A DNA stretch of 64,000 bases from an uncultured Ignavibacteria bacterium. Lineage in GTDB: Bacteria; Zixibacteria; MSB-5A5; RBG-16-43-9. The translations under genes and the position numbers were made by a program. The notes beneath the pieces are model-generated. The model searched no databases. It was not told where the DNA came from and worked only from the letters and a program-made list of their open reading frames with translations. Of the stretch, positions 1-56,460 are shown piece after piece; within the stretch, counting starts at the first letter, position 1; every line of letters begins with the position of its first letter. Location of the stretch: contig CAZMZF010000001.1 in the NCBI GenBank assembly GCA_964570765.1, positions 47,626 through 111,625 on the forward strand, read 5' to 3'.

Positions 1-54
1 AAGATAGATAAATAAAATTAAATGACGAATATCGGATATCGAATGATGAATATA

Positions 55-83
55 ACGTCCGGGTTTACCCCGGACGTTTTTTC
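55..83 (+). terminator. Hairpin ACGTCCGGG-TTTA-CCCGGACGT followed by a T6 run; rho-independent terminator-like
   Basis: Perfect 9-bp stem and T-tract read directly from the sequence. It would terminate a gene lying upstream of the window. Confidence 0.4.
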
Positions 84-333
84 TTGTAGGGACAGGACAT
101 TGTCCTGTCCTTTGAATTTTTTTATTCAGGATGAAAGTTTTTGAGATAGAAAATGTAAATTCAGTTACAAATGACAGATAACGGATAAAATATTTATCTT
201 TTAGAAAAGAACCTCACCCTTAATCCCTCTCCTTGAAAAGGAGAGGGAAGTGTAGCGTCCGGTCTCAAGATGCATTGCAGTTTATCCCAGACGTCCTTTT
301 TCTATGTAGCGCGAGGCCATCTCCGCCTCAGTA

Positions 334-515
334 TAGTTTTTCAGTATTTTGGTAACATTTTTTATAGGTTAAGGATATAGGAAAGAGATTATAAATTAGA
401 AGGTAACTTGTTAAAACGGGATTCACATCCAAAAATTTGTTAGTAATTAACGAGATATTGCGTAGGGGTGGAGATTGTTGAGCTTTGCGAAACCCAGATT
501 TTAGGGTCTCCACCC
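334..515. repeat. Copy A of a ~183-bp noncoding element that is duplicated at 52457-52639
   Basis: About 88% identical to the second copy. Ends in the hairpin GTAGGGGTGGAGA...TCTCCACCC. The 61-aa ORF on the minus strand inside it is judged spurious. Confidence 0.6.
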
Positions 516-1090
516 TTAACCCTTATTATAATTTTCATTGTAACTTGAGATCACCTCCTCTATAAACGATTTGTTTTAAAACTATTTTTGCCTGGATTTT
601 CTCCTCCGGTTTTATTAGAGTCTCCATTCATAGTTATTTCTCCCTTTTTTACTCCAGCAAAAATTTGATTAATTTTAGGATTTTTAAACAAAATAAATTT
701 TACTTCAACGAAGATTTCAGGAGAAAGCTTCCTGGTTTAACTCTTTAATATAAGGTTCCAACCTAGTTAGCACCCAATAATTACAATAATAATTAAACTA
801 ATAAAATTTATTTTGTCGTCTTTTTTTAGATTTTTTGGGATTTTAATAGTGCGGGAAGATTATTCTAGCATTAAGTTTTATCACAAAAACGCATGATTGA
901 AAAGCCAACATTGCTAATTCATTCTAAACACTTGCACCATTTTAATCTTTAAGCCAATATAGTCACTCTCCTGAGCTAACTTATAAACTTTTCCTTGACT
1001 TGAAGCTTAAAAGTATTAAATTTTGCGGTGAACTAAAAGGTTAAAGAGTTTAATCCGCCAGAGGCGGAAAGGGTTCAAGGGAAAAAACTT

Positions 1091-1933
1091 ATGCTTAAAC
1101 TTGATGATAAAGAAGTCTATTCTATAGTGGATAATTCCTTTAAGATCGATGGAGGGGCGATGTTTGGAGTGGTTCCTAAAATTATCTGGGAAAGGATGAT
1201 GGTTCCGGATGAGTCAAACAGGATAACTTTAGACTTAAACCTTCTCCTGGTTAAAGCAGAAGGTAAAAACATCCTGGTCGATAGCGGAATTGGTGATACT
1301 CTGAATGAAAAACAGAAGAAGATATATGGTGTGGAAAAAGAGTCTAATCTTGAAAAAGGTCTTTTCGAGATTGGGTTAAAACCTGAGGATATTGATCTGG
1401 TTATTCTTTCTCATCTTCATTTAGACCACGCAGGAGGGATTGTTAAATTTAATTCTCAAGGTGAGAAGGTTCCCCGTTTTCCAAAAGCGAAACATGTGAT
1501 TCAAACCGAAGAATGGAAATATGCGCTTCAACCGGATGAAAGGACTAAAGCAACTTATATGGTGGAGAATTTTCAGGTTCTGGATGAATACGGGTTGATA
1601 GAGTTAGTGAAAGGAGATAGGGAGATTGTGCCGGGGATAAGGGTGAAATTGACTGGAGGACATACAAAAGGACAGCAGGTGGTTTTTATCCAGGGAGGGG
1701 ATAAAACGATTCTTTATCCTGGAGATATAATTCCTACTATTTCTCATCTTAGAATTCCTTATGTGGCAGGTGTTGATATCTATCCCTTAGAGGTTATGGA
1801 GGTCAAAAAGAAATTGATCCAGGACTGTCTGGAATATAACTGGATGATTGCTTTTGATCACGAGATCGAGACAAAGCTCTGTCGTTTAGAAAAAATAAAT
1901 GATAAGATAGAAATTAAAAAAGTTCCAATTTAG
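1091..1933 (+). CDS. MBL-fold metallo-hydrolase (metallo-beta-lactamase superfamily)
   Basis: HLHLDHAGG metal-binding motif and overall MBL-fold pattern. The gene is preceded by a GGTTCAAGG repeat and an A-rich run. Confidence 0.75.
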
Positions 1934-1947
1934 AAAAAAGGTGTTTT

Positions 1948-3498
1948 ATGTCCTTAGAAAAAAAATTAGAGGAGTTAAAAAAGAAAAGAGCAGAGGCGGA
2001 ATTAGGCGGTGGTCCCAAAAGGATAGAGGAACAGCATAAAAAGGGGAAGCTTACGGCCCGGGAGAGGTTGGACCTGCTTTTAGATGATGGTAGTTTTGAG
2101 GAATTCGATATGTTTGTTTTGCACCGCTGTAGAGATTTTGGCCTGGATAAGCAGAAATTTTTCGGTGATGCGGTAGTTACCGGGTACGGAACCATCGAAG
2201 GTAGATTGGTTTTTGTCTTCTCCCAGGATTTCACCACCTTTGGCGGGTCTTTATCCGAAGCCCATTCAGAGAAAATCTGCAAGATTATGGATTTAGCAAT
2301 GAAAATTGGTGCTCCGGTTATAGGTTTGAACGATTCAGGAGGTGCCAGGATTCAAGAAGGGGTGGTTAGTTTAGGTGCTTATGCCAATATATTTTTAAAA
2401 AACACCTTAGCCTCAGGTGTAATTCCGCAGATCTCGGTAATACTGGGTCCCTGCGCCGGAGGTGCTGTCTATTCGCCAGCGATTACTGATTTCACCTTGA
2501 TGGTCAAAGGGACAAGTTATATGTTTGTTACCGGACCTTCAGTAGTCAAAACGGTTACGCATGAAGAGGTAAGTTACGATGAGTTAGGTGGTGCTCTGGT
2601 TCATTCAAGTAAGAGCGGAGTGGCTCATTTCGCCTGTGAAAATGAAGCAGAGACTCTTCTTATAACCCGGAAACTTTTTAGTTTCATCCCTCTGAACAAT
2701 ATAGAAGACCCTCCGGATAAGGAATGCTCTGACCCAGTTGACCGAATGGATGAAGAGTTAAATTTCGTTGTTCCAGAAGAACCGACCAAGCCTTATGATA
2801 TGAAAGATGTGATAAAAAGGGTAGTGGATGATGGCGATTTTCTTGAGGTTCACAAAGACTATGCTCAGAATTTAGTGGTGGGGTTTGCGCGAATGGGTGG
2901 TAAATCTGTAGGGATTGTAGGTAATCAACCAGCGGTCTTAGCCGGGGTTTTAGATATCGATTCGGCAATAAAGGGAGCGAGATTTGTCAGGTTCTGTGAT
3001 GCTTTTAACATACCTTTAGTGGTATTTGAAGATGTACCCGGTTTTCTGCCTGGGACCGCTCAGGAGTTTGGTGGAATAATAAAGCATGGGGCAAAACTTC
3101 TCTATGCTTTCTGTGAGGCAACTGTTCCCAGATTAACTGTGATCACACGCAAAGCTTATGGAGGAGCTTATGATGTTATGAATTCCAAACACATAAGAGG
3201 GGATATAAACTACGGCTGGCCCACTGCAGAGATAGCAGTTATGGGTCCAAAAGGTGCAGTGGAGATTATCTTTAAAAAAGAGATAGCGGAATCTCCTGAT
3301 CCTGAAAAGGCAACTGAGGAGAAGTTAAAAGAATTCATTGAAAAGTTCGCTAACCCTTATATCGCCGCAGAAAGGGGTTATTTGGATGATGTGATTGAGC
3401 CCAAAGAGACCAGACCAAGATTAATCAAGGCTTTGTCGATGCTGGAGACTAAAAAAGATTTCAATCCGCCGAAAAAGCATGGGAATATACCATTGTAA
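1948..3498 (+). CDS. Acyl-CoA carboxylase carboxyltransferase subunit (propionyl-CoA carboxylase beta / methylmalonyl-CoA carboxyltransferase 12S-like)
   Basis: 516 aa. Typical carboxyltransferase N-terminus ([22 protein letters not shown]) and the paired CT domains. Confidence 0.85.
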
Positions 3499-3583
3499 AA
3501 AGGTTCAAGGGTTCAATGGTTCAAAAGCTCAAGGGAAAATAATGACAAATTATAGATGACAGATATAAAATAAAAGAATCATA

Positions 3584-3742
3584 GGCGGAGCACCTTGCTC
3601 CGCAAAAACGTAGATCGTAGAGTCCGACCTTTGTGTCGGACAATGAAAGGTTTATCGTAGCGCCCGTAGGGCAATGCGACCCTGTCCTACGGTGGCTACG
3701 CCAGACGTAGTCTCCGTTATTAGGAAAAGGGTCGCGCTACGA
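3584..3742. repeat. Cluster of REP-like palindromes (GGCGGAGC hairpin, GTCCGAC hairpin, GTAGCGC...GCGCTAC family)
   Basis: Nested palindromes. The last 65 bp (3678-3742) recur at 7725-7789 with one mismatch. Confidence 0.6.
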
Positions 3743-3753
3743 CAAAATATATT

Positions 3754-5280
3754 ATGTTCAAAAAAATTCTTATAGCTAATCGGGGAGAGATCGCAGTCAG
3801 GATTATACGAGCTTGCAGAGAGTTAGGGATAAAAGCGGTCGCGGTCTTTTCTGAAATAGACCGAAAAGGTTTACATGTTCGGATGGCAGATGAAGCTTAT
3901 TTTATCGGACCCTCACCTTCAGTTGCCAGTTACCTTAATATGGAAAAGTTAATTGAGGTGACAAAAAAAGCAGGGTGCGAGGGGATTCATCCGGGTTATG
4001 GCTTTTTAGCAGAAAATCCAGTGTTCGCCCGATTAGTTGAAAAAGAGGGATTGGTTTTCATCGGTCCGCCTGCCTCTGCCATTGAGCTTTTAGGGGATAA
4101 AATGGCGGCCAGAAAAACGATGAAAAAAGCCGGGATCGAAGTTGTTCCCGGAACTGAGGAACCTTTAGAGTCTGAAAAGCAGGGGCTTTCTATTGCTCAA
4201 AAAATAGGTTTCCCAATTTTAATTAAAGCGGCTGGTGGTGGAGGGGGAAAAGGGATGAGGATTGTCAGAAATGAAAAAGATTTAAAAGAGGCCATGAGGG
4301 CTTGTTCCTCTGAAGCTAAATCTGCCTTTGCGGATGCCAGGATCTATATTGAAAAATATTTAGAGAAACCCAGACATATTGAGATTCAGATCTTAGGTGA
4401 TAAATTCGGAAATATTATTTATTTAGGGGAGAGGGAGTGCTCTATTCAGAGAAGACATCAGAAGGTGATTGAGGAATCTCCTTCACCGATTGTAGATGAG
4501 GTTATGCGAAAGAAAATGGGTGAGACGGCGGTTAAAGCAGCTAAAGCGGCTGGATATCGCAATGCAGGAACAATGGAATTTTTGGTTGATTCTGATAAAA
4601 ACTTCTATTTCTTAGAGGCTAATACTCGACTTCAGGTAGAACATCCGGTTACGGAGATGGTTACCGGGATCGATATAGCCAAGGAGCAGATGAAGATTGC
4701 CTCAGGTTTGCCTTTAAGCTACAAGCAGGCGGATGTTACCTGGAAGGGAGCATCTATAGAATGTCGGATTTATGCTGAGGACCCGGAAAACAATTTTCTG
4801 CCTTCAACCGGTACGGTTTCATATTATGAAGAGCCAGCAGGTCCAGGGATCAGGGTTGATTCCGGTCTTTATGAAGGATGTGATGTCCCGATCTACTATG
4901 ATCCAATCATAGGAAAATTAATCACCTGGGGTAAAGATAGAGAGGAAGCTATTCAGAGAATGAGAAGAGCTTTAGCGGAATATCATATTTCCGGTGTAGC
5001 TACCACCATACCTTTTCACATTCAGGTGATGGAGAATGAAAAATTCAAGCAAGGAGAATTGTCTACTCATTTTATTGAAGAGGAGTTTAATCAAGGCAGA
5101 AAAGCTCAACTTGAAGAAAATAGTTATAGAATGGTGGCTTTGTTTTCGGCTTTAGCTGAATATAAAAATATACAAAAGGTTCAAAGGTTCAATCCGCCAG
5201 GGCGGACAAAGACTCAAGAGAAGGAAAATCCGTGGAAGATGGAAGGGAGAAGAAGAGGATTAAGAAAATTTGGGATTTAA
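3754..5280 (+). CDS. Biotin carboxylase subunit (ATP-grasp), partner of the upstream carboxyltransferase
   Basis: N-terminus MFKKILIANRGEIAVRIIRAC, glycine-rich ATP-grasp loop GGGGGKGMR and the downstream biotin-carboxylase domain pattern. The 3' end runs through a GGTTCAAAGG/CCGCC repeat, which may extend the C-terminus. Confidence 0.9.
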   Translation: MFKKILIANRGEIAVRIIRACRELGIKAVAVFSEIDRKGLHVRMADEAYFIGPSPSVASYLNMEKLIEVTKKAGCEGIHPGYGFLAENPVFARLVEKEGLVFIGPPASAIELLGDKMAARKTMKKAGIEVVPGTEEPLESEKQGLSIAQKIGFPILIKAAGGGGGKGMRIVRNEKDLKEAMRACSSEAKSAFADARIYIEKYLEKPRHIEIQILGDKFGNIIYLGERECSIQRRHQKVIEESPSPIVDEVMRKKMGETAVKAAKAAGYRNAGTMEFLVDSDKNFYFLEANTRLQVEHPVTEMVTGIDIAKEQMKIASGLPLSYKQADVTWKGASIECRIYAEDPENNFLPSTGTVSYYEEPAGPGIRVDSGLYEGCDVPIYYDPIIGKLITWGKDREEAIQRMRRALAEYHISGVATTIPFHIQVMENEKFKQGELSTHFIEEEFNQGRKAQLEENSYRMVALFSALAEYKNIQKVQRFNPPGRTKTQEKENPWKMEGRRRGLRKFGI

Positions 5281-5306
5281 GTATAAAGTAATACTTTAAA
5301 GCATAT

Positions 5307-5813
5307 ATGAAATACATTGCTAATATTGAAGATAAGAGTTTTGAAGTTGATATAATTGAGACTGATGGTAAACTGATAATAAAGCTTGATGGTCAACCTG
5401 TTGCGGTTGATTTTGTGCAAGTTAAACCACCTAATCTTTTTTCATTTCTGGTGGATAATCAATCGTTTGATGTGGAGATAGTAAAAAATGCTGAGGGGTA
5501 CTGGGTAAATTTTAATGGAAGAAGATATGAATGTATTTTAGAGGATGAGAAAATTCAAAAGATAAAAGATATTGTCGGGTTTAAAAAAGAGATTTTGCAT
5601 GATAGAGAACTTAAATCTCCAATGCCTGGTTTAGTCGTTGCCATTGAGGTTGAGGAGGGGGAGATGGTGAAAGTGGGGCAGGGTGTTGCCATAGTTGAGG
5701 CGATGAAGATGGAAAATGAGTTGAAAGCTAAATTTGATGGGAAAGTGAAAAAAGTCAGGGTGAAACCGGGACAGGCAGTGGAAAAGAACGAGATTCTGGT
5801 AATATTTGAATGA
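5307..5813 (+). CDS. Biotin carboxyl carrier protein (biotinyl domain)
   Basis: C-terminal EAMKM biotinylation motif (VEAMKMENEL). Confidence 0.8.
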   Translation: MKYIANIEDKSFEVDIIETDGKLIIKLDGQPVAVDFVQVKPPNLFSFLVDNQSFDVEIVKNAEGYWVNFNGRRYECILEDEKIQKIKDIVGFKKEILHDRELKSPMPGLVVAIEVEEGEMVKVGQGVAIVEAMKMENELKAKFDGKVKKVRVKPGQAVEKNEILVIFE

Positions 5814-6048
5814 GAAAAAACGTTTTTCGTGACCGTTGTTCGTGAGCGTTGAAAAAATGTAGAGAGGTTCAATAGTTCAAAGGTTTAATAGTTCAAGGGC
5901 AAAAAAGATATAGAATTCATTGCGGGGAAACCAGGCCGGAATGACGAAATTCGTAGGACGTTCGCCCGACACGATGGTCGGGCGTTAAGAGTTTCAGCTA
6001 CTTGCTACATGCTACCTGCTAAGAGCTATTAATAGATGAGAGAGGTAA

Positions 6049-7647
6049 ATGATGGATGATAAACGCAAATTTTTCACCACCTCAAATATTCCCATAAACG
6101 AGCTTTATACTACAGAAGACCTTTCTGATTTCGATTACACCAGTAACTTAAGCTATCCGGGGAAATATCCTTTCACCCGTGGGGTGCAGAAGGATATGTA
6201 TCGGGGACGCTTGTGGACGATGAGGCAGTATGCTGGCTTTGGGACTGCTCTGGAGACTAATAAACGGTTCAAATATTTATTACAGAAGGGACAGACCGGT
6301 TTATCAATTGCCTTCGATCTTCCTACCCAAATCGGTTATGATTCTGACCATCCCTTATCCTCAGGTGAAGTGGGCAAAACCGGAGTAGCGATCGATACGC
6401 TTAAGGATATGGAAATACTTTTTGATGGAATTCCATTGGATAAAGTTAGCACCTCAATGACTATAAATGCTACAGCTTCAATCCTTTTAGCGATGTACGT
6501 GGCTTTAGCTAAAAAGCAAAATGTCCCCCTAAATCTACTCTCCGGCACGATTCAAAATGATATTCTAAAAGAATATATTGCCAGAGGAACATACATCTTT
6601 CCCCCTCGCCCTTCGATGAGACTTACTACTGACATTTTTAAATACTCCAGTGAAAATCTTCCAAAATTTAATCCAATAAGTGTTAGCGGTTATCATATCA
6701 GGGAGGCTGGGGCAACTGCGGTGCAGGAGATTGCTTTTACATTAGCTAACGGCATAACCTATGTGCAGGAAGCGATAAATTCCGGGCTGAAAGTGAATGA
6801 TTTCGCTAAACGGGTTTCATTTTTCTTGAATTCTCACAGTAATTTCTTTGAGGAGATAGCCAAGTTCAGAGCAGCCAGGAGGCTCTGGGCGAAAATTATA
6901 AAAGAGAGATTCAGGGCAGAAGAAGATGTATGTAAATTAAGATTTCACACTCAGACTGCAGGATGTACCCTTACTGCCCAACAGCCTGAAAATAATATAA
7001 TTAGAGTAGCCCTGCAGGCACTTTCCTCAATCCTGGGAGGGACTCAATCGTTACATACCAATTCAATGGATGAGGCATTAAGTCTTCCCTCACAAAAGTC
7101 AGCTGAAATAGCTTTAAGAACACAACAGATTATTGCCTATGAGAGCGGGGTTACTGATACGGTTGACCCCTTAGCTGGAGCTTATTTTATTGAAGCTTTG
7201 ACCAATAGAATAGAGGATGAGGCGAGAAAATATATAGATTATATCGTAAAGAATGGTGGTGCATTATGGGCGGTCGAATCTGGATATTATCAGAAAGAGA
7301 TTCAGAAAAGCGCTTATGAATATCAAAAGATGATAGAATCAAAAGAGAAAATTATTGTAGGGGTGAACAAATTTGAGGCTGAAGTTGAAAAAGAGAAAAG
7401 AAAAAAGATTTTTAAGGTAAGTAAAAAGGGAACATTGGATCAGATTAAAAGATTAAAAGAAGTAAAAGAAAAAAGAGATAAAGAAAAAGTGAAAAAGTCA
7501 CTGGATGAATTGAGAAATAAAATTAATACGGATGAGAATTTAATGTATCCGATAATTCATTGCGTAGAAGCTTATACCTCAATTGGTGAGATCTGCGAGG
7601 TCTTAAAAAGTGTCTGTGGAGAGTATGAACAGAAAGTAATAATTTAA
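6049..7647 (+). CDS. Methylmalonyl-CoA mutase, catalytic (N-terminal) subunit without a B12-binding domain
   Basis: 532 aa with the mutase TIM-barrel pattern (RMYAGFGT..., SIAFDLPTQ...). Lys-rich C-terminal linker and no cobalamin-binding DxHxxG domain. Confidence 0.8.
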   Translation: MMDDKRKFFTTSNIPINELYTTEDLSDFDYTSNLSYPGKYPFTRGVQKDMYRGRLWTMRQYAGFGTALETNKRFKYLLQKGQTGLSIAFDLPTQIGYDSDHPLSSGEVGKTGVAIDTLKDMEILFDGIPLDKVSTSMTINATASILLAMYVALAKKQNVPLNLLSGTIQNDILKEYIARGTYIFPPRPSMRLTTDIFKYSSENLPKFNPISVSGYHIREAGATAVQEIAFTLANGITYVQEAINSGLKVNDFAKRVSFFLNSHSNFFEEIAKFRAARRLWAKIIKERFRAEEDVCKLRFHTQTAGCTLTAQQPENNIIRVALQALSSILGGTQSLHTNSMDEALSLPSQKSAEIALRTQQIIAYESGVTDTVDPLAGAYFIEALTNRIEDEARKYIDYIVKNGGALWAVESGYYQKEIQKSAYEYQKMIESKEKIIVGVNKFEAEVEKEKRKKIFKVSKKGTLDQIKRLKEVKEKRDKEKVKKSLDELRNKINTDENLMYPIIHCVEAYTSIGEICEVLKSVCGEYEQKVII

Positions 7648-7678
7648 AATACGTGTGAAGGATTCGATGATTGGAGAT

Positions 7679-7789
7679 TGTAGCGCGAGGCCTCAAGGTC
7701 TTGAGACTTTCAGCCTCGCAATGTGACCCTGTCCTGCGGTGGCTACGCCAGACGTAGTCTCCGTTATTAGGAAAAGGGTCGCGCTACGA
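7679..7789. repeat. REP-like palindrome cluster (GTAGCGCGAGGC...GCCTCGC, then GACCCTGTCC...GGGTCGCGCTAC)
   Basis: Palindromes read from the sequence. The terminal 65 bp repeat 3678-3742. Confidence 0.6.
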
Positions 7790-7802
7790 AAGGTCGAAAA
7801 TT

Positions 7803-8201
7803 ATGAAAATAGAAAAAATTGAACATATCGGGATTGCAGTGAAAAGCATTGATGAAGTGGCGAAATTCTACAGCAACATTCTTAATCTAAAAATCTCTGA
7901 AAAAATTGTGGTGCCTCAAAGAAAGATTAGAATTGCCTTTGTCCAGCTCTCTGAAACAAAGTTGGAGCTATTAGAGTCGATGGAGGAAGGGAGTGTTATT
8001 GATAAATTCATTCAGAAAAAGGGGGAAGGGATTCATCATATTTGCTTTGAGGTGGAGGATTTTGATAAGGTTGTAGCTGAGCTAAAGGATAAAAAAGTAG
8101 AATTGGTGGGCGAACCCCGGACAGGTGCAGAAGGAAAGAGAATCGTTTTCCTCCAGCCTAAAAATGCGTTTGGGGTGTTGATTGAGTTAAAGGAAAAATA
8201 G
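7803..8201 (+). CDS. Methylmalonyl-CoA epimerase (VOC/glyoxalase family)
   Basis: 132 aa. N-terminus IEHIGIAVKSIDE is typical of epimerases, and the gene sits in the methylmalonyl-CoA cluster. Confidence 0.75.
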   Translation: MKIEKIEHIGIAVKSIDEVAKFYSNILNLKISEKIVVPQRKIRIAFVQLSETKLELLESMEEGSVIDKFIQKKGEGIHHICFEVEDFDKVVAELKDKKVELVGEPRTGAEGKRIVFLQPKNAFGVLIELKEK

Positions 8202-8326
8202 CACAGCTGATTGGAATGATTAAGCAAATTAAAAAATACGGATGACAGAGTTTTTCGTAGCGCCCGTAGGGCAATGCGACCCTAAAAGGTCGCGCTACGA
8301 AACTGCAACTTGATTAAGAGAATTAA

Positions 8327-9325
8327 GTGATAGATATTTTTGGTTATCAAATTGAACGTGATTTATTTTTGACAATTCTAGGTATTATTGTTGCGGGTAT
8401 AATTAGCTTTTTTACTTGGATTCGTCCTCGTCGGGCAAAACTGAAAAAACAAGACGAAGAGCGTCTTTGGCGTATTGAAAAACAAGCAAAAGAAACAAAT
8501 GAAAACATAAAGCTAATACAAAGGCATTTTGACATTCCGATTTATGTAGATGAGTTACCTTCTGCACGTCCATCAGTATTTGTCCCATTTCTTAAAGGGT
8601 TAAAACTTATGATGCAGCTTAAATGGGATGAAGCAATACTTGAATTTAAGCAGGCGTTGAAAGATGCAAAAACCAGTCAATTAGTTGCCCTTTATAATTT
8701 TATAGGACTCTGTTACATTGTGTATGACAAACTCGATTTGGCTTTAGAAAGTTTTAATAATTCTTTAACTTTTGCTAGTGAGCTTGACAGCAAAGAGGGT
8801 GAAGCGGTCGCTCTTAGCATGCTTGCCATAACTTTTCGAAATAAAGGTGAATTGGACAAGTCCTTAGAATATTACCAAAATGCTTTAGTTGTATGTAGAG
8901 AAATTAACGACAAAAAATTGGAAGCAGCAATAATTTTCAGCCTTGGTCTAATCTATCAGATGAAAGGAGTTCTGGATAAAGCAGAGAAAAGCTATGAGGA
9001 AGCTCTGAAGATTTTTAGAGTAATTGGTGAAAAAGAAGGGGAAGCTAAATCGCTTGGAAACCTCGGTTTAATTTATCAGGCCAATGGTCTTTTAAATGAA
9101 GCCTTCAGATCTTTTCTATCTGCTCTTAAGATCAATAAAAAACTTGGCAGAAAGAAAGGTATAGCAGTCCAGATTAACAATATAGGTACAGTCTTTGAAG
9201 CTAAAAGAGAAAAGGAAAAAGCTCTGAGATATTTTGAAGATGCTTTGAGAATATTTACTGAAATTGGAGAGCAGAAGGGAATTGAACAAACTAAAGAAAA
9301 TATTAAAAGATTAAAAGGTGAATGA
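8327..9325 (+). CDS. TPR-repeat protein with an N-terminal transmembrane helix
   Basis: Multiple 34-aa TPR-like repeats (AxxxYxxALxI...). Hydrophobic N-terminus. Confidence 0.65.
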   Translation: MIDIFGYQIERDLFLTILGIIVAGIISFFTWIRPRRAKLKKQDEERLWRIEKQAKETNENIKLIQRHFDIPIYVDELPSARPSVFVPFLKGLKLMMQLKWDEAILEFKQALKDAKTSQLVALYNFIGLCYIVYDKLDLALESFNNSLTFASELDSKEGEAVALSMLAITFRNKGELDKSLEYYQNALVVCREINDKKLEAAIIFSLGLIYQMKGVLDKAEKSYEEALKIFRVIGEKEGEAKSLGNLGLIYQANGLLNEAFRSFLSALKINKKLGRKKGIAVQINNIGTVFEAKREKEKALRYFEDALRIFTEIGEQKGIEQTKENIKRLKGE

Positions 9326-9339
9326 GGTTCAAGTACTCC

Positions 9340-9390
9340 GTAGCGCGAGGCTTTTAGCCTCGCAATGCGACCCTGAAAGGGTCGCGCTAC
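9340..9390. repeat. REP element: GTAGCGCGAGGC-TTTTA-GCCTCGC-AATG-CGACCC-TGAAA-GGGTCGCGCTAC
   Basis: Double-hairpin palindrome with GTAG/CTAC termini, located 22 bp upstream of the RAYT gene. Confidence 0.75.
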
Positions 9391-9412
9391 GATTATAAGA
9401 AATGTAAATTAA

Positions 9413-9892
9413 ATGAAATATAGTTTTCAAAAGAGGATAAGATTAAAGGACTTTTCTTATAAAGGTTTGTGGAGATACTTCGTAACAATTTCGACGTACG
9501 AAGGTAAACGATATTTCGAAAATAATAAGTCTGTAGAGAGTTGTATTATTTATCTTAAAGATATATCGGTTTCATATAACTTCAACGTATTAGCGTATTG
9601 TTTTATGCCTGATCATTTGCATCTTTTGATTGAAGGAAAAGAGGAAGATTCTGATTTTAGGAAGTTTATGTCTATGTTTAAACAGAAGTCAAATTATCAT
9701 TGTAAAAACATCGAAGGAAATCCTCTTTGGCAAAAGGATTATTATGAACATGTTTTAAGAAGAAATGAGGATACTATACAGGTAATAAAGTATATATTAG
9801 ATAATCCGGTAAGAAAAGGGATGGTTAAGGATTTTAGAGATTATCCCTTTCTCGGTTCTTTTGTTTATGATTTAAAAGAGGTATTTTCGTAG
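9413..9892 (+). CDS. REP-associated tyrosine transposase (RAYT, IS200-like HUH Y1)
   Basis: HuH motif MPDHLHLLI and downstream catalytic Tyr region LWQKDYYEHVLR...NPVRKGMV. Same-family REPs flank the gene on both sides. Confidence 0.85.
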   Translation: MKYSFQKRIRLKDFSYKGLWRYFVTISTYEGKRYFENNKSVESCIIYLKDISVSYNFNVLAYCFMPDHLHLLIEGKEEDSDFRKFMSMFKQKSNYHCKNIEGNPLWQKDYYEHVLRRNEDTIQVIKYILDNPVRKGMVKDFRDYPFLGSFVYDLKEVFS

Positions 9893-9938
9893 CGCGAGGC
9901 TTCAGCCTCGCAATGCGATCCTAAAAGGATCGTCCTAC
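9889..9938. repeat. REP element of the same family. Its GTAG supplies the RAYT TAG stop codon
   Basis: GTAGCGCGAGGCTTCAGCCTCGCAATGCGATCCTAAAAGGATCGTCCTAC. Confidence 0.75.
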
Positions 9939-9978
9939 GAAAAGCAATACGAAAGACAAAAATATACAGGAGAACAAG

Positions 9979-11052
9979 ATGGGTCTTTTTGAGATGATGG
10001 AGGAGAAAGGGCATGAGCAGTTGATATTTTGCTACAATCAGCCCACGCATTTAAAAGCCATAATCGCTATCCACGATACTACCCTGGGAAAAGCAGTTGG
10101 AGGATGCAGGCTCTGGAAATATAATACAGAGAAAGAGGCGATTACGGATGCTTTGATTTTGTCTGAAATTATGACTTATCAATCTGCTATCTCGGATTGC
10201 GATACCGGCGGGGGCAAAGTAGTTTTGTGGCATGATTTTGAAGAAGAGCCGGATGAGGCTTATTACCGGGCTTTAGGGAGGTTTATCGAGGGGCTAAAGG
10301 GAAGGATCATTACCTATCCGGATTTAGGCACTGATACTCAGGAGATGAAGTACATTCGAAGAGAGACCGAGCATGTCCTTTTTTATGAGACCTCCTCAGG
10401 TTTGAGAGCGGAAAGCTCAGAGCTTACCGCTTATGGAGTTTACTGGGGGATGAAAGCCTGTGTTAAAGAGCTTTATGGTATATCCTCTTTAGATGGGCTT
10501 ACTGTGGCAATTCAAGGAGTAGGGAGTGTAGGTCGAATACTGGCTGATTATCTCAAGGAAGAAAAAGTAAAGCTTATCGTTACTGATTTGAACTATGATT
10601 CCATCAAAAAAGTTCAGGATAAATATCCGGATACAATTATTGCCAACCCTGAAAATATTTTAACCTGTGAATGCGATGTCTTTTCTCCCTGTGCTTTAGG
10701 TCCAGTATTCAGCAGGCAGAATATAGATAAGCTCCGATGTAAAATCATTGCTGGAGGAGCTTATAATATTTTAGAAGAGGCTTCATTGGCTGAGGAACTA
10801 TTTAAACGAGGGATTTTGTATGCTCCGGACTTTGTGATAAACAGTGGTGAGCTTTTTATGACTGCGGATGCTTTAAAGATATTATCCAAAGATGAAGCTT
10901 TAGCCTCAGCTAAAAAGATCTATGATATAATGGCAAAAGTACTGGCTATATCCAGAAGAGGGAATATCTCCCCTTATAAAGCTGCTTACCAGTTGGCAAA
11001 AGAAAGGATAATAAAAGTAGGGGATATAAAAAATATTTTATGTTGTATCTAA
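9979..11052 (+). CDS. Leucine/valine dehydrogenase (Glu/Leu/Phe/Val dehydrogenase family)
   Basis: 357 aa. IAIHDTTLG...GGCR motif and Rossmann GVGSVG motif. Confidence 0.85.
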   Translation: MGLFEMMEEKGHEQLIFCYNQPTHLKAIIAIHDTTLGKAVGGCRLWKYNTEKEAITDALILSEIMTYQSAISDCDTGGGKVVLWHDFEEEPDEAYYRALGRFIEGLKGRIITYPDLGTDTQEMKYIRRETEHVLFYETSSGLRAESSELTAYGVYWGMKACVKELYGISSLDGLTVAIQGVGSVGRILADYLKEEKVKLIVTDLNYDSIKKVQDKYPDTIIANPENILTCECDVFSPCALGPVFSRQNIDKLRCKIIAGGAYNILEEASLAEELFKRGILYAPDFVINSGELFMTADALKILSKDEALASAKKIYDIMAKVLAISRRGNISPYKAAYQLAKERIIKVGDIKNILCCI

Positions 11053-11158
11053 AAAACAGTTCAAAGGTTTAAAGGTTTAAAAGTTTAAAGGTAAAAAAGA
11101 AAATTAAACTGTTTACAATAAGAGTTCTTATCAAGGAAACAAAAGGATAGAAAAAAGT

Positions 11159-12250
11159 ATGAATAAGAAGAATAGTTTTAGAATTCTGGTAATCAACCCA
11201 GGTTCGACCTCTACCAAGGTCTCAATCTTTGAAGATGAAAAGGAGCTTTTTGGAAAAGCAATCTCCCATAGCAAATTAGAACTGGAGCCGTTTAAAAGAG
11301 TCTGGGATCAATATGAGTTCAGAAAGAAGCTGATTAAAGACTTATTGGAAGAGTATGAGATTAAGCCAGAAACTCTTTCGGCAGTAGTAGGTAGAGGTGG
11401 ACTTTTCAGGCCAGTGGTTGGTGGAACTTATCTGGTAAATGAACTGATGATCGAGGATGGTAGAAATGCTTTTGGAGGAGAACATGCGGCTAATTTAGGT
11501 GCAGTTTTAGCTTTTGGATTAGGCTGGGATTATCATATACCAGCCTTCATAGTGGATCCACCCTCTGTGGATGAATTCGAAGAATACTCCCGCTATTCAG
11601 GTTTACCGGAGTTTCCCAGGAAAAGTCTTTTTCATGCACTAAACGTAAAAGCCACAGCCCGATTAGCCGCAAACGATTTGAAGAAAAAGTTAGAGGAGAT
11701 AAATCTGATTGTGGCTCATTTAGGAGGTGGAGTTACCGTAGCGGCTCTGGAAAAGGGAAGAGCAATTGATGTTAATAATGGCTTGCACAGTGGTCCGTTT
11801 ACACCGGAAAGGTCTGGAACTTTGCCGATGTTTGATTTTGCGGAATGGTGTTTTTCCGGAAAAGTGACTTTAGAACAGGTGAAAAAAAGGATGGTGGGTG
11901 GTGGTGGTCTGGTGGCTTATTTAGGGACGAATGATGCTAAAGAGGTGGAAAAAAGAATAAAACAAGGGGATAAAAAGGCTGAAGCTGTCTATAATGCAAT
12001 GATCTATCAGATCGCCTGTGAAATCGGTGCCAGAGCTGTAGCCCTTAAGGGTAAGGTGGATGCTATCGTTTTAACCGGAGGATTAGCTTACTCGGATATG
12101 GTAGTTGAGAAGTTGAGAGAGTATGTGGGCTTTATTGCCAGGATATTAGTTTATCCAGGACAGGATGAGATGAAAGCTTTAGCTTTAGGGGCTCTCAGAG
12201 TATTAAGAGGGGAGGAGGAGGCAAAGACTTATCCGGAGATGGTCAAATAA
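11159..12250 (+). CDS. buk: Butyrate (branched-chain fatty acid) kinase
   Basis: RILVINPGSTSTK N-terminus and the acetate/butyrate-kinase fold pattern. Confidence 0.9.
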   Translation: MNKKNSFRILVINPGSTSTKVSIFEDEKELFGKAISHSKLELEPFKRVWDQYEFRKKLIKDLLEEYEIKPETLSAVVGRGGLFRPVVGGTYLVNELMIEDGRNAFGGEHAANLGAVLAFGLGWDYHIPAFIVDPPSVDEFEEYSRYSGLPEFPRKSLFHALNVKATARLAANDLKKKLEEINLIVAHLGGGVTVAALEKGRAIDVNNGLHSGPFTPERSGTLPMFDFAEWCFSGKVTLEQVKKRMVGGGGLVAYLGTNDAKEVEKRIKQGDKKAEAVYNAMIYQIACEIGARAVALKGKVDAIVLTGGLAYSDMVVEKLREYVGFIARILVYPGQDEMKALALGALRVLRGEEEAKTYPEMVK

Positions 12251-12377
12251 AAAACGTTCAAAAGCTTAAAAGTTCAAATGTTCAAAGGTAAAATATAAGT
12301 GATGTTGGAGTGCTTAGGTTGGTTCGGGAATTGTCGTTAAGATTTTCTAGGGTGAGAATTCCTGAACCAGAAACGTA

Positions 12378-22771: not shown

Positions 22772-22929
22772 AGTTTAATTAATTTAAAGTTTGTAAATTA
22801 GTAGTGCGACCCTTTTAGGGTCGCCTTAGCGAGGCTAAAAGCCTCGCACTACGAAAGCTTCCTGGTAAACCTGAAGGTTTACACTCCATAATTACGTTCA
22901 CGAAAAACGAATAACGTTCACGTTTTTTC

Positions 22930-23703: not shown

Positions 23704-23917
23704 TTCTCCTCCTTTGATTGTTGAATTGTTTTTCGTAGTGCGACCCTTCAGGGTCGCTTAAGCAAGACTAAAGCCTCGCACTTCTTTTTGAAGTCTACAG
23801 GCTAAAATCCGTAGGGACAACCCTTATGATTGTCCGAAATCGGTAGAACAGACATTCCTGTCTGTTCATCGTAGTCAGACAAGAATGTCTGACTTACCAA
23901 TACCAAGAGCCTATTGC

Positions 23918-28981: not shown

Positions 28982-29505
28982 CGAGTAAACCTCCTGTTCT
29001 TGTGATTTATATCAAAAAAAGCAAAAATTCTTCTGTTTTATATATAATCTTTTTTAAATCAAGATTCAAGGATTTTCTTTCATACTTTGAGATTTTTTTC
29101 ACAAGGTATTTTATAGGGACCACCCTTGTTGAACTTTGTGAAATCCCCGCCAAAGGCGGGGGTGGTTGTCCGTATTTCGTAGTGCGACCCTTTTAGGGTC
29201 GCCTGGGAACTATCTATTGCGGAGACGCATGCAATGCGTCTCTACGTTTCTTTTAGCTTCTGCGGAGCAAGTCCGCCTCTGGCGGAAGCTTACGATTCTA
29301 CATTTGTCATTTCCTACGGATCCGTTTCTCGGACTGAGCAAGTCCGCCTTTGGCGAGACGATCGAAGAATCTCTTAAACTTGACAAGAGAATAGATTCTT
29401 CGTCCGCCTTTGGCGAGACTCAGAATGACAGTTCATTGTGTCCCTTGAGCCTTTGAACCCCTCAACCACATAAGCGAGGCTAAAGCCTCGCACTACGAAA
29501 AAAAT
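28982..29505. repeat. 524-bp intergenic region made almost entirely of REP palindromes inside a long minus-strand catabolic gene string
   Basis: Palindrome families CCGCCAAAGGCGG, GTAGTGCGACCC...GGGTCGC, GAGACGCATGCAATGCGTCTC, TCCGCCTCTGGCGGA, ...CTCAGAATGAC and GCGAGGCTAAAGCCTCGCACTAC. Confidence 0.6.
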
Positions 29506-34900: not shown

Positions 34901-35239
34901 TTTGTATTTCCTTGTTTATCGTAGTGCGACTCTTTCAGGGTCGTGTAGCAGAGGTTTTAGATCTCTGCCGAGCCCTGAAGGCTCGGCTACGCGTCTATTT
35001 TCATGGTTGGGCTACCCAACACATTATACGGCCTGTCCCGAAGGACGACCAAGGTGTAAACGGGCCTGCACGACCATTTTTTCAACATAAGTTTTTTGTG
35101 CGGTAGAATAGACATTCTTGTCTGTTCTTTTATTTGTCAGACAGGAACGTCTGACGTTACGTCTTGTCATTCTGAGGGAGCGTAGCGACCGAAGAATCTG
35201 AAGACTCTTCGCTTTCGCTCAGAGTGACAGTAAAAATAA

Positions 35240-37841: not shown

Positions 37842-38279
37842 AGATTACCCTCGCTTTCTTTTTATTTTCAAAAGGAAAAGTATTATACTAAATAGATATG
37901 GAAAAAGTCAAGATTTTTTGACAGAATATTTTTTTAAAGTTTTAGGGATCCAGTTTTGGAGAAAGCACAGGTGACTTTCTAGGTAGAGACGCATTGCCAT
38001 GCGTCTCTACTTCTTTCGTAAAACTCATCTTGACATGGAAGACGGTTTCTCTCCTACAGGAAAGGGGATAGTTGAAAGCTGTAGGGGTGAAGTTACCTCG
38101 TCCCTACAAAAAATATTTAATTTTAATGTTCTTTGTCCGAGTTTGTCATCAAGACCCAAAATCGGGGATCCATAGGATTGGTATCCTCACCAAGAAGAAA
38201 AAATCGTTGGTCGGGAGACCAACGATTAGCAAAGGGCGTATGGCAATACGCCCCTACGATCTATTCGATATCTGATATT

Positions 38280-38678: not shown

Positions 38679-38808
38679 TATTTAATTTCTTAGTTTACAT
38701 ATCTACTTTAAGGACAGAACAGTGTTCTGTCCCTACAATCCCCACCTTGTGGGCAAGGTGGGTCTACCAGTTTTTTTGGACAGAATCCACTTGAGATGGG
38801 TCCTGTCC

Positions 38809-45815: not shown

Positions 45816-46101
45816 ATTCTCTTTTGGTGGAACAGATATCCTGTCACTTCTTATTATCAGACAGGAATGTCTGACCTACCACTTTTTTGGACCCACCTTG
45901 GGGGCAAGGTGGGTCTACCGATTTAAGGATAGAATTCACCGAAGGTGGATTCTGTCCCTCCAACCAGTTTCGTCGGGCGTGAAGCCCGACGCTACGAGCA
46001 TTCACTCTTTCACCATCGGATCAGTCCGCTTGAGGTGGACGACGGACACATAACTCCATATTTTTGCTACAAGCTCCTTGCTACGTGCTACCTGCTTAAA
46101 T

Positions 46102-50400: not shown

Positions 50401-50630
50401 GATTTATGTAGGGGCACGGCGCACCGTGCCCCTACGGATGTCATTGCGACCCCGCCACAGGAGGGGGAAGCAATCTGCTGACTATGTGAAGGTTGCTTCG
50501 TCGTCCCCGAAGGGGGCTCCCCGCAATGACAGGTAAAAGAAAAATATTTTGAAATTTTTCTTGCTTTTTGAAAAGTTATCTATATGTTAGTTAATGGTAG
50601 TATAAAAAACCTAAAACTAAGGAGTGGAAG

Positions 50631-52277: not shown

Positions 52278-52456
52278 AAAAAGTTCAAGGGTTTAAGAGT
52301 TTAAAGGTTCAAAGGGAAAAAAGAAGTGGAATTGATTCGGGTTTCGTGAACGTAAATATAACCTTACCCTAACCCTATCATTAGGAAGGAGAGGGGATGA
52401 ATTATGTACAGTAGAGGTTCAAAATTTTGAACCCTTACTTTTTTCCAAATTCAGTT

Positions 52457-55025: not shown

Positions 55026-55225
55026 AGAACGTTTAATCCGCCAAAGGCGGACAAAAGTTCAAAGGCTCAAAGGAAGAAAAAATAATAATGGATGAAGAAT
55101 GACGAATGACGGAAAAAATATTGTAGGGGCAACCCCCTGCGGTTGCCCATTATGGGAGCAGGCGCTGGAGCCTGCCCCTACATAAAATATAAAATGTCAA
55201 CACTTATGAATTCAGAGGTCAATAG

Positions 55226-56382: not shown

Positions 56383-56443
56383 GTAGGAGCAGGCCCCTGT
56401 GCCGGCCCTGATATTCTGGGCGAACACACAGGTTAGCCCCTAC
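56383..56443. repeat. REP element GTAGGAGCAGGCCCCTG...GCCCCTAC (GTAGGGGC family)
   Basis: Palindrome with GTAG/CTAC termini 18 bp upstream of the RAYT2 start. Confidence 0.6.
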
Positions 56444-56460
56444 AAATACCAGAATAAAAA

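What the first reader, a model, noticed from the sequence alone, without database searches (positions are those of the whole stretch)
9340..9938. RAYT gene bracketed by two same-family REPs in direct orientation. The downstream REP supplies the stop codon
The REP at 9340-9390 sits 22 bp upstream of the RAYT start. A second copy of the same REP begins at 9889, so that its GTAG contains the TAG stop of the transposase (TTT TCG TAG). Both copies read GTAGCGCGAGGC on the + strand, which is direct rather than inverted orientation. The described E. coli-type RAYTs are flanked by inverted REPs. This may be a REPIN-like unit that mobilises the gene with its substrates.
Basis: seen in the sequence. Interest (0 to 1): 0.5.

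Follow-up and report, generated by a model that had tools for sequence, protein, structure and literature searches.

The report
RAYT gene flanked by REP doublets
This is an ordinary "REPtron": a domesticated single-strand-DNA transposase gene (RAYT) sits between copies of the short GTAG-tagged hairpin repeats it is thought to spread. The "direct orientation" and the borrowed stop codon are normal features of such loci, not a new kind of mobile unit.

Summary
The sequence facts hold. ORF 9413-9892 (159 aa) is a RAYT (NCBIfam NF047646, 112.9 bits, cut-off 80). It has H68-L-H70, and Y127 and N131 align with Y115 and N119 of E. coli TnpAREP. Two similar elements (51 and 50 nt) flank it at 9340-9390 and 9889-9938, and the TAG stop lies in the downstream GTAG.

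Each element is not one REP. It is a head-to-head dimer of two different inverted REPs: a, GTAG-C-GCGAGGC/GCCTCGC, and b, on the other strand, GTAG-C-GCGACCC/GGGTCGC. The dimer folds as a Y-shaped junction. The gene-proximal REPs are therefore inverted, as in the classical description; only the dimers as units are direct.

E. coli K-12 rayT has the same geometry (all y REPs on +, all z on -). In this window every clear dimer points the way the neighbouring genes are transcribed.

A REP-supplied stop is conserved in all close orthologues. It occurs in 25 of 72 RAYT loci of this clade, against 19 of 1017 control ORFs, and it is already described in the literature.

The RAYT is syntenic in four relatives (76-91% identity), so gene mobility is not supported. 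This is a new member of a known kind, probably in a Zixibacteria-like genome.

The parts
9340..9390 (+). Upstream REP dimer (head-to-head heterodimer, GTAG ends outside). REP a is 9340-9363 on + (GTAG C GCGAGGC TTTTA GCCTCGC). The spacer AAT is 9364-9366. REP b is 9367-9390 and is read on the - strand (GTAG C GCGACCC TTTCA GGGTCGC). The dimer ends 22 nt before the RAYT ATG.
   Evidence: Sequence. The ssDNA fold is a Y-shaped three-way junction, -23.5 kcal/mol, z -7.65. GTAG-plus-hairpin is detected on both strands.
9413..9892 (+). RAYT / TnpAREP gene, 159 aa. HUH motif is H68-L69-H70. The predicted catalytic Tyr is Y127 and the metal ligand is N131.
   Evidence: NCBIfam NF047646 scores 112.9 bits (cut-off 80); IS200 model NF033573 scores 24.9 (cut-off 55). 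Pfam Y1_Tnp. Best PDB match is E. coli TnpAREP 4er8, E 3.8e-11, with the Y115, N119 and HUH columns aligned. These residues are invariant in 32 homologues.
9889..9938 (+). Downstream REP dimer. REP a is 9889-9911 on +, and its GTAG holds the RAYT stop TAG at 9890-9892. The spacer AAT is 9912-9914. REP b variant is 9915-9938, read on the - strand (GTAG GA CGATCC TTTTA GGATCG). The outer stem extends to TTTC (9885-9888) / GAAA (9939-9942), so the last RAYT codons TTT TCG are part of the structure.
   Evidence: -19.6 kcal/mol, z -5.39. Flank consensus TTTC|GTAG...CTAC|GAAA across 21 copies.
8257..8298 (+). Same-family dimer (a' variant GCCC GTA GGGC, plus b) between the epimerase and the TPR gene. 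Together with 9340-9390 it brackets the TPR gene as direct repeats.
   Evidence: L002 lacks the TPR gene and carries a chimeric dimer made from this copy and the right flank of 9340-9390.
7680..7787 (+). Same-family dimer with foreign inserts in both hairpin loops (17 nt in a, 44 nt in b).
   Evidence: family D12.
3657..3740 (+). Same-family dimer (a' plus b). The b loop carries the same 44-nt insert as the 7680 copy.
   Evidence: D12, 97% identity over 72 nt.
22801..22852 (-). Intact same-family dimer in the opposite orientation, in a stretch of minus-strand genes. Its outer stem is GTAGT/ACTAC, a compensatory variant.
23735..23784 (-). Degenerate same-family dimer, minus orientation.
29179..29496 (-). 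Same-family dimer split by about 270 bp of other small repeats inserted between b and a.
34921..34946 (+). Single b-type REP (GTAGTGCGACTC...). Its orientation matches that of the minus-oriented dimers.
   Evidence: (D8).

Best explanation
The locus is a REPtron. It holds a single-copy, vertically inherited HUH/Y1 nuclease gene (RAYT/TnpAREP) embedded between copies of its cognate repeat.

The repeat unit here is a compact 50-51-nt head-to-head heterodimer of two REPs, a and b. Each REP is GTAG followed by a perfect 7-8-bp palindrome. The two differ by a GG/CC swap in the stem, so each folds on its own and the dimer forms a Y-shaped junction.

By analogy with E. coli, S. maltophilia and Marinomonas TnpAREP, the protein would bind GTAG-plus-hairpin on single-stranded DNA: REP a on the top strand and REP b on the bottom strand. 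It would then cut and rejoin nearby, which maintains and spreads the dimers through intergenic DNA. The gene itself would stay put.

The direct orientation of the two flanking dimers follows from a general polarity: a lies upstream of b in the direction of transcription. The TAG stop inside GTAG reflects the tight, conserved abutment of the RAYT ORF to its downstream REP.

Shown here: family membership, catalytic residues, repeat anatomy and fold, conservation of the arrangement in orthologues, dispersal of the repeat, and synteny.

Inferred: binding, cleavage and repeat dissemination.
For: - RAYT identity. NF047646 scores 112.9 bits against a cut-off of 80, while the IS200 model falls below its cut-off. 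The best solved relative is E. coli TnpAREP, with HUH, Y115 and N119 aligned to H68/H70, Y127 and N131. These residues are invariant in 32 homologues.
- Repeat anatomy and fold.
- Compensatory pair changes among 16 dimers from several phyla. Outer pair 5 is C-G in 8 and T-A in 6. Pair b4 is A-T in 14 and T-A in 2. Pair b5 is C-G in 11 and T-A in 4.
- Conservation in orthologues. At 91, 78, 76 and 72% identity, all have an a-b dimer ending CTAC 11-23 nt before the ATG and a TAG stop inside the GTAG of a downstream a REP.
- Clade-wide pattern. 25 of 72 RAYT ORFs end inside a REP: 13 in GTAG, 11 in the loop of an inverted REP, 1 other. The figure for control ORFs is 19 of 1017, Fisher p = 2e-20.
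- Both flanks. 39 of 71 loci have strict REPs within 120 nt on both sides. In 26 of these the proximal pair is inverted, and the window belongs to this class.
- Dispersal. At least 9 further copies lie next to unrelated genes in the window.
- Synteny. The neighbours are 78-97% identical in L002, L003, L007 and L008.
- The E. coli prototype has the same dimer geometry.
- Literature. RAYTs flanked by REPs/BIMEs, sometimes immediately after the stop (PMC2817692). HH heterodimers 1-5 bp apart, GTAG supplying TAG stops, and REPs overlapping RAYT 3' ends (PMC3733652). GTAG-plus-hairpin binding and cleavage (PMC3479197, PMC8266576). Single-copy vertical inheritance (PMC5581495).
Against: - There is no biochemical evidence for this protein.
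- Only 64 kb of the genome is available, so genome-wide copy numbers of the RAYT and its REPs are unknown.
- The third metal ligand of E. coli TnpAREP (H123) is Lys here (K135), so metal use or activity may differ.
- REP b downstream of the gene has a degenerate outer stem (GTCCTAC).
- The polarity rule rests on small numbers, and gene strand is confounded with GC skew.
- Near-identical REP sequences occur with only 50-55%-identical RAYTs in other phyla. That could mean occasional horizontal movement of gene plus repeats, which the 'gene stays put' picture does not cover.
Confidence: 0.85

Rival explanations
1. First reader's reading. The two direct elements plus the RAYT form a self-mobilising composite unit: the gene travels with its substrates, cut out between same-strand REPs like an IS200/IS605 element.
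For: - Same-strand a REPs on both sides give the geometry that Y1 'peel-and-paste' transposases use. This rests on established knowledge of IS608 and on the models in PMC2817692.
- The RAYT-plus-dimer unit occurs in a different gene context in L005 (DnaK...ClpB).
- Almost the same REP sequence occurs with 50-55%-identical RAYTs in Dehalococcoidales, Omnitrophota and Deltaproteobacteria MAGs.
- The neighbouring TPR gene is a dimer-bounded presence/absence polymorphism.
Against: - One copy in 64 kb; the only other hit is a 27%-identical paralogue.
- Fixed syntenic position in four relatives, with divergence similar to the neighbours.
- The IS200/IS605 HMM scores below its cut-off.
- No mobility of tnpAREP has been found in the literature (PMC8266576, PMC5581495).
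- Direct orientation is the default for all dimers in co-directional clusters.
Confidence: 0.07
2. The flanking dimers act mainly at the RNA level. They are transcribed with the operon, and their hairpins stabilise or attenuate transcripts. They throttle RAYT translation through a structured 5' leader 22 nt from the ATG and a stop codon sequestered in a stem. The polarity with transcription reflects this role. This reading can coexist with the best explanation.
For: - All clear dimers are co-oriented with transcription.
- No promoter-like or terminator-like site lies between the upstream gene and the RAYT, so read-through transcription is plausible.
- The stop codon pairs in the outer stem.
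- PMC3733652 argues that REPs are mostly transcribed and that RAYT expression may depend on read-through and be down-regulated by REP hairpins.
Against: - There are no expression data.
- The dimer is nearly palindromic, so an RNA hairpin would form in either orientation. Structure alone therefore does not obviously explain the polarity.
- No Rfam family matches.
- The promoter scan covers sigma-70-type sites only.
Confidence: 0.25
3. The association is incidental. These are ordinary intergenic repeats that happen to lie on both sides of a small transposase-like gene in a repeat-rich region.
For: Five of the intergenic gaps between 3.5 and 10 kb carry this family, so two flanking copies could arise without any link to the gene.
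Against: - The same flanking, including the stop-in-GTAG overlap, is kept in orthologues in other contexts and phyla.
- Stop-in-REP is about 18-fold enriched for RAYT ORFs (35% against 1.9%, Fisher odds ratio about 28).
- Paralogous RAYTs in one MAG carry different REP families (L009 against L020).
Confidence: 0.03

Closest known systems
E. coli K-12 REPtron (rayT/yafM = TnpAREP with y/z REPs in BIMEs; PDB 4er8)
   Same: - HUH/Y1 fold family, with HUH, catalytic Tyr and Asn ligand aligned.
- The gene is flanked on both sides by dimers of two different inverted REPs with GTAG tags.
- One REP type is always on + and the other always on -, so the dimers are direct.
- A flanking GTAG supplies a TAG stop; in E. 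coli it is the stop of the upstream gene yafL.
- Single copy.
   Different: - About 30% identity only.
- E. coli REPs are 29-37-nt imperfect palindromes with bulges and 10-30-nt linkers. Here the REPs are perfect 7-8-bp stems with 3-5-nt loops and a 3-nt linker.
- In E. coli the upstream dimer lies about 95 nt from the ATG and the stop is TAA outside the REP.
- E. coli ligand H123 is Lys here.
Group 3 REPtrons (S. maltophilia Sm, Marinomonas Mb; PMC8266576) and S. maltophilia RAYTs (PMC2817692)
   Same: Short perfect palindromic REPs, directly or nearly directly preceded by GTAG. REPs lie immediately next to the rayt stop codon. RAYT and REP co-vary.
   Different: Group membership of this protein was not tested. 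Here the repeat is an obligate a/b heterodimer with a 3-nt spacer.
REPIN-RAYT systems of Pseudomonas (PMC3116915)
   Same: The unit is a doublet of inverted REPs. Doublets predominate over singlets. Compensatory changes keep the pairing. The RAYT is single copy and vertically inherited.
   Different: Pseudomonas REPINs are roughly 90 nt or longer (GI REPINs have 71 bp between the two conserved 16-mers), and the two REPs pair with each other in one long hairpin. Here the a/b stem swap prevents that, and the minimum-energy fold is the 'clover'/Y form in which each REP folds alone.
GTAG REP head-to-head heterodimers and REPtrons catalogued by Di Nocera et al. (PMC3733652)
   Same: HH dimers with partners 1-5 bp apart. 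Heterodimers differ in stem bases. GTAG termini provide TAG stop codons. REPs overlap the 3' end of RAYT genes. The organisation of REPtron flanks is variable.
   Different: That catalogue did not include Zixibacteria-like genomes. I found no statement there about polarity of heterodimers relative to transcription.
IS200/IS605 insertion sequences (IS608 TnpA)
   Same: HUH/Y1 catalytic core. The gene is bordered by sub-terminal hairpins, with same-strand hairpins at both ends.
   Different: - The HMM score is below the family cut-off (24.9 against 55).
- Single copy and syntenic.
- The flanking hairpins are a dispersed genome-wide repeat.
- RAYT-specific motifs (WQ..YYEH.LR, NPVRKG) are present.

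Membership tests
RAYT / TnpAREP (REP-associated tyrosine transposase) | Sequence matches the curated family model above its cut-off and better than the IS200/IS605 model | tested here: met
   NF047646 scores 112.9 bits (cut-off 80). NF033573 (IS200) scores 24.9 (cut-off 55).
RAYT / TnpAREP (REP-associated tyrosine transposase) | HUH motif and catalytic tyrosine | tested here: met
   H68-L-H70 and Y127 align with H59-M-H61 and Y115 of 4er8. They are invariant in 32 homologues.
RAYT / TnpAREP (REP-associated tyrosine transposase) | Gene flanked on both sides by GTAG-tagged palindromes, with at least one inverted pair | tested here: met
   Proximal REPs are at 9390 (-) and 9889 (+), distal REPs at 9340 (+) and 9938 (-). 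The arrangement is kept in orthologues.
RAYT / TnpAREP (REP-associated tyrosine transposase) | The same REP family is dispersed in intergenic DNA of the genome | tested here: met
   At least 9 further copies in 64 kb, all intergenic. The genome-wide count cannot be tested because the source genome is not in the collection.
RAYT / TnpAREP (REP-associated tyrosine transposase) | Single copy, no sign of mobility of the gene itself | tested here: inconclusive
   One copy in the window plus a 27%-identical paralogue. Syntenic in four relatives. The whole genome is not available.
RAYT / TnpAREP (REP-associated tyrosine transposase) | Binds and cleaves single-stranded cognate REP DNA | not testable with these tools
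   Needs purified protein. Shown only for the E. coli, S. maltophilia and Marinomonas enzymes (PMC3479197, PMC8266576).
REPIN (REP doublet forming a hairpin) | Two REPs in inverted orientation separated by a short spacer, with the doublet as the predominant form | tested here: met
   The a-b dimers have 3-5-nt spacers. Most copies in the window are dimers.
REPIN (REP doublet forming a hairpin) | The two REPs pair with each other to give one long hairpin | tested here: not met
   The minimum-energy and centroid ssDNA folds are a three-way junction with each REP folded on itself. The a and b stems differ by a GG/CC swap, so they cannot pair fully.
BIME-like REP heterodimer | Two distinct REP types alternate in opposite orientation | tested here: met
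   Type a is always followed by type b on the other strand. Some orthologues have a-b-b triplets. The layout matches y/z in E. coli.
IS200/IS605 insertion sequence | Transposase matches the family model, and the element is present in multiple copies with its own ends | tested here: not met
   HMM score below the cut-off. No second copy in the window. Fixed syntenic position.

The most novel reading that the evidence does not exclude
Type-a REPs lie on the same strand at every junction of a co-directional gene cluster. Any dimer-bounded segment could therefore be a substrate for RAYT-catalysed single-strand excision and insertion. This applies to the RAYT itself (9340-9938) and to the TPR gene between 8257 and 9390.

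This reading would explain three things:
- the dimer-bounded TPR presence/absence polymorphism (window and L007 against L002 and L008);
- the occurrence of RAYT-plus-dimer units with near-identical REPs in several phyla;
- the strict polarity of the dimers.

It would make the system a gene-cassette shuffler rather than only a repeat spreader.
Probability: 0.08. Interest if true: 0.55.

Novelty: new member of a known kind. Interest (0 to 1): 0.2.

Why it matters
The result mostly matters as a correction. The apparent exception to the 'inverted REPs' rule disappears once the 51-nt element is read as a two-REP dimer, and the E. coli prototype shows the same geometry.

It also adds a clean, compact REPtron from a poorly studied lineage (closest genomes are Zixibacteria MAGs), with an obligate a/b heterodimer that folds as a Y junction.

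The comparison across 72 loci gives figures for something the literature mentions only in passing. In this clade about a third of RAYT ORFs terminate inside their downstream REP, either in GTAG or in the loop of an inverted REP.

The polarity of heterodimers with transcription and the dimer-bounded gene indel are small leads for anyone studying how REPs spread.

Tried and rejected
- Single-REP reading of the 51-nt element: rejected after folding both strands and finding GTAG-hairpins on both strands.
- IS200/IS605 membership: rejected on HMM scores.
- Known RNA family: Rfam gave only a sub-threshold chance miRNA hit elsewhere.
- Own promoter or terminator for the RAYT: the scan found nothing above shuffled expectation, so this stays uninformative.
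- Recovering the source genome for a genome-wide REP census: the single genome-contig scan returned no identical locus. The best was 78%, and only a 4-kb Logan contig holds the exact protein.
- MAFFT alignment of 16 dimers: it put the b arms out of register in rows with shorter loops. I did not use the count of structure pairs on it and counted pairs with a script that parses each arm instead. The a arm was fixed by the search pattern, so its invariance is not evidence.
- First guess of the E. coli rayT coordinates: it hit the wrong region and was corrected.
- Incidental flanking by abundant intergenic repeats: considered and rejected on the orthologue comparison and the stop-overlap enrichment.

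Full report
**1. Observation**

The region reads exactly as described. The ORF listing gives an ORF at 9413..9892 (+), 159 aa, ending TTT TCG TAG. The upstream element, GTAGCGCGAGGCTTTTAGCCTCGCAATGCGACCCTGAAAGGGTCGCGCTAC, occupies 9340-9390 and ends 22 nt before the ATG. A similar element begins at 9889, so the stop TAG (9890-9892) is the last three bases of its GTAG. It runs to 9938. GTAGCGCGAGGC with up to 2 mismatches occurs 11 times in the window against 1.04 expected, and no shuffle out of 100 reaches that.

**2. What the elements are**

Folded as single-stranded DNA on either strand, each element forms a three-way junction: an outer stem GTAGC/GCTAC enclosing two separate 7-8-bp hairpins. 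The energies are -23.5 and -19.6 kcal/mol, with z -7.65 and -5.39.

- Hairpin a is GCGAGGC-loop-GCCTCGC, with its GTAG on the + strand.
- Hairpin b is GCGACCC-loop-GGGTCGC, with its GTAG on the - strand (it reads CTAC on +).

Each '51-nt REP' is therefore a head-to-head dimer of two different REPs separated by 3 nt. Di Nocera et al. call this an HH heterodimer (PMC3733652). It corresponds to a minimal BIME or REPIN-like doublet. The a and b stems differ by a GG/CC swap, so the REPs cannot pair with each other and each folds alone.

I parsed 16 distinct dimers of this family from the window and from loci in several phyla. They show compensatory double changes:

| Pair | Commonest | Alternative |
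|---|---|---|
| Outer pair 5 | C-G, 8 | T-A, 6 |
| b4 | A-T, 14 | T-A, 2 |
| b5 | C-G, 11 | T-A, 4 |

The a arm was fixed by my search pattern, so its invariance says nothing. The flanks of 21 copies give the consensus TTTC|GTAG...CTAC|GAAA. The last two RAYT codons (TTT TCG) are therefore effectively part of the element.

**3. The gene**

The protein passes NCBI's curated REP-associated tyrosine transposase model (NF047646, 112.9 bits, cut-off 80). It fails the IS200/IS605 model (24.9 against 55). Pfam gives Y1_Tnp.

Its best solved relative is E. coli TnpAREP (4er8, E 3.8e-11). In that alignment H68-L-H70, Y127 and N131 match H59-M-H61, the catalytic Y115 and the metal ligand N119 (residue roles from PMC3479197). 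E. coli H123 is Lys here. These residues are invariant in an alignment of 32 homologues. The closest genome-derived relatives are Zixibacteria MAGs (78% and 69%). The source is therefore probably Zixibacteria-like, which is an inference.

**4. Orientation**

With dimers on both sides, the REPs nearest the gene are b on the left (GTAG at 9390, - strand) and a on the right (GTAG at 9889, + strand). They are inverted, with both GTAGs facing the gene. [quoted passage not shown] Only the dimers taken as units are direct (a-b, gene, a-b).

I read the E. coli K-12 rayT locus directly. Upstream there is a y REP on + followed by a z REP on -. Downstream the order is z(-) y(+) z(-) y(+). The prototype therefore also has every y on one strand and every z on the other, which means dimers in direct orientation on both sides.

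The orientation is also not specific to the RAYT. Genes run on + from 1 to 12250 and on - from 12552 to 47512.

- The five clear dimers in the + block all read a-b on +: 3657, 7680, 8257, 9340, 9889.
- The four in the - block all read the other way: 22801, 23735, 29179, and the b-only copy at 34921.

That is 9 of 9, a two-sided binomial probability of about 0.004. In related loci a generic detector found 18 a-b dimers in +/+ contexts, 1 b-a in -/-, 3 b-a in +/+ and none a-b in -/-. Numbers are small and gene strand is confounded with GC skew. Even so, two dimers in a co-directional cluster are expected to be direct.

Across 71 RAYT loci of the clade, 39 have strictly defined REPs within 120 nt on both sides. 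The proximal pair is inverted in 26 and direct in 13. The flanking organisation therefore varies, as PMC3733652 also reports for REPtrons.

**5. The stop codon**

The overlap is real and conserved. The orthologues all end TTT NNG TAG inside the GTAG of an a-type REP (L002/L003/L004 91%, L008 78%, L007 76%, L005/L009 72%). All have an a-b dimer ending CTAC 11-23 nt before the ATG.

In 72 loci of the clade (44-78% identity plus the window), 25 RAYT ORFs end inside a strictly defined REP. Of these, 13 end in GTAG, 11 end in a TAA/TGA sitting in the loop of an inverted REP (for example GCAAACC-TAA-AGGTTTGCCCTAC), and 1 ends elsewhere in a REP. The rate for other ORFs of at least 150 aa in the same loci is 19 of 1017 (35% against 1.9%). 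The Fisher odds ratio is about 28 and p = 2e-20. The detector demands perfect stems, so the RAYT figure is a lower bound. The control set includes spurious ORFs.

This feature is not new. [quoted passage not shown] PMC3733652 states that GTAG termini often provide the TAG stop to flanking ORFs and marks REPs overlapping RAYT 3' ends. In E. coli K-12 the GTAG of the y REP upstream of rayT supplies the stop of yafL. In L008 the upstream dimer supplies the stop of the epimerase gene.

**6. Is the gene mobilised with its repeats?**

tblastn finds a single copy in the window. The only other hit is a 27%-identical paralogue at 56461-57048.

The order mutase, epimerase, (TPR), RAYT, Leu-DH-type dehydrogenase, butyrate kinase is kept in L002, L003, L007 and L008. 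The neighbours are 78-97% identical and the RAYT 76-91%. This is the pattern of a vertically inherited resident gene, as described for RAYTs (PMC5581495, PMC8266576).

More distant relatives sit in other contexts (L005). Nearly the same a/b REP sequences accompany 50-55%-identical RAYTs in Dehalococcoidales, Omnitrophota and Deltaproteobacteria MAGs. Rare joint transfer over long times therefore cannot be excluded.

One local observation fits dimer-mediated rearrangement. The TPR gene (8327-9325) lies between two direct dimers. L002 lacks it and carries a chimeric dimer made of the left copy joined to the right copy's flank. Ordinary recombination between 50-nt direct repeats explains this as well as any RAYT-catalysed event.

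**7. Mechanism**

The best-supported account is the REPtron model. The RAYT is an HUH/Y1 nuclease that recognises GTAG-plus-hairpin on single-stranded DNA and cuts and rejoins nearby, which maintains the dispersed repeat family. The gene is resident and tightly bounded by its substrates.

- Family, residues, repeat structure, conservation and dispersal are shown here.
- Binding, cleavage and spread are inferred from the E. coli, S. maltophilia and Marinomonas enzymes (PMC3479197, PMC8266576).

No promoter-like or terminator-like site separates the RAYT from the upstream gene, and no Rfam family matches. Read-through transcription with structured 5' and 3' ends is therefore plausible, as PMC3733652 suggested, but it is untested.

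**8. Verdict**

This is a new member of a known kind, with no departure from known REPtron organisation once the dimer structure is recognised. Interest is low. The polarity of heterodimers and the quantified stop-in-REP habit are modest side results.

Noticed in passing
window 56461-57048 (+), palindrome at 56740-56768: There is a second, divergent RAYT-like ORF (195 aa, 27% identical to the first). NF047646 scores 47 bits, below the cut-off of 80. It carries an in-frame perfect palindrome, GTAGGGGCGACCCGCCGGGTCGCCCCTAC, inside the coding sequence between the HUH and Tyr regions. GTAGG...CCTAC-type repeats lie upstream at about 56384-56444.
   Followed up: partly
window 8257-9390; L002 570-612: The TPR gene 8327-9325 is bounded by two direct a-b dimers. 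The 91% relative L002, and also L008, lack the gene and have one dimer at the junction. In L002 that dimer is a chimera of the window's 8257 copy and the right flank of the 9390 copy. L007 has a TPR homologue. This is a repeat-bounded insertion/deletion polymorphism.
   Followed up: partly
window 3657-3740, 7680-7787, 8257-8298, 9340-9390, 9889-9938 (+); 22801-22852, 23735-23784, 29179-29496, 34921-34946 (-): All clear copies of the a-b dimer are co-oriented with the transcription direction of the surrounding genes (9 of 9). The same tendency appears in related loci (19 of 22 in unidirectional contexts). Five of the nine lie within 6 kb of the RAYT.
   Followed up: partly
window 3683-3726 and 7730-7773; 7692-7708; 29205-29473: Foreign DNA is nested inside the dimers. 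The same 44-nt insert sits in the loop of hairpin b in two copies (97% identical over 72 nt). A 17-nt palindrome sits in the loop of hairpin a. About 270 bp of other small repeats separate b from a in one copy. Loops and spacers appear to be insertion targets.
   Followed up: no
loci L018, L019, L025, L028, L030, L032, L059, L062, L067, L068, L070 (downstream ends of the RAYT ORFs): In many RAYT relatives the ORF runs into an inverted REP and stops at a TAA or TGA located in the hairpin loop (e.g. GCAAACC TAA AGGTTTGCCCTAC). This is a second recurrent way in which the REP supplies the stop codon.
   Followed up: partly
window, e.g. 86, 19511, 26300, 37983-38010, 38736-38767, 45879-45995, 50408-50435, 55123-55181, 58930, 61156: More than a dozen other GTAG-plus-hairpin repeat families share the window (GTAGGGACAG.., GTAGAGACGCAT.., GTAGACCCACCTTG.., GTAGGGGCACGG.. 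and others). This is far more families than the two RAYT-like genes seen here.
   Followed up: no
window 3497-3542, 5853-5914, 11053-11106, 12250-12295, 52277-52330, 55035-55088: Short tandem arrays of an 8-nt unit (GTTCAAAG / GTTTAAAG) sit just after stop codons in several intergenic regions. They are often followed by an A-rich run.
   Followed up: no
L089 1459-1462 (E. coli K-12 NC_000913.3 about 247458-247461); L008 2774-2777: The GTAG of the REP dimer upstream of the RAYT supplies the TAG stop of the preceding gene: yafL in E. coli, and methylmalonyl-CoA epimerase in a Zixibacteria MAG.
   Followed up: yes
L015 6422-6472, L026 9710-9760, L012 3593-3648, L017 2394-2445, L021 10514-10566: Almost the same a/b REP dimer (GTAG[CT]GCGAGGC...GCGACCC...CTAC) accompanies RAYTs only 50-55% identical in MAGs labelled Dehalococcoidales, Omnitrophota and Deltaproteobacteria. 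This points either to very old conservation of RAYT-REP specificity or to horizontal transfer.
   Followed up: no
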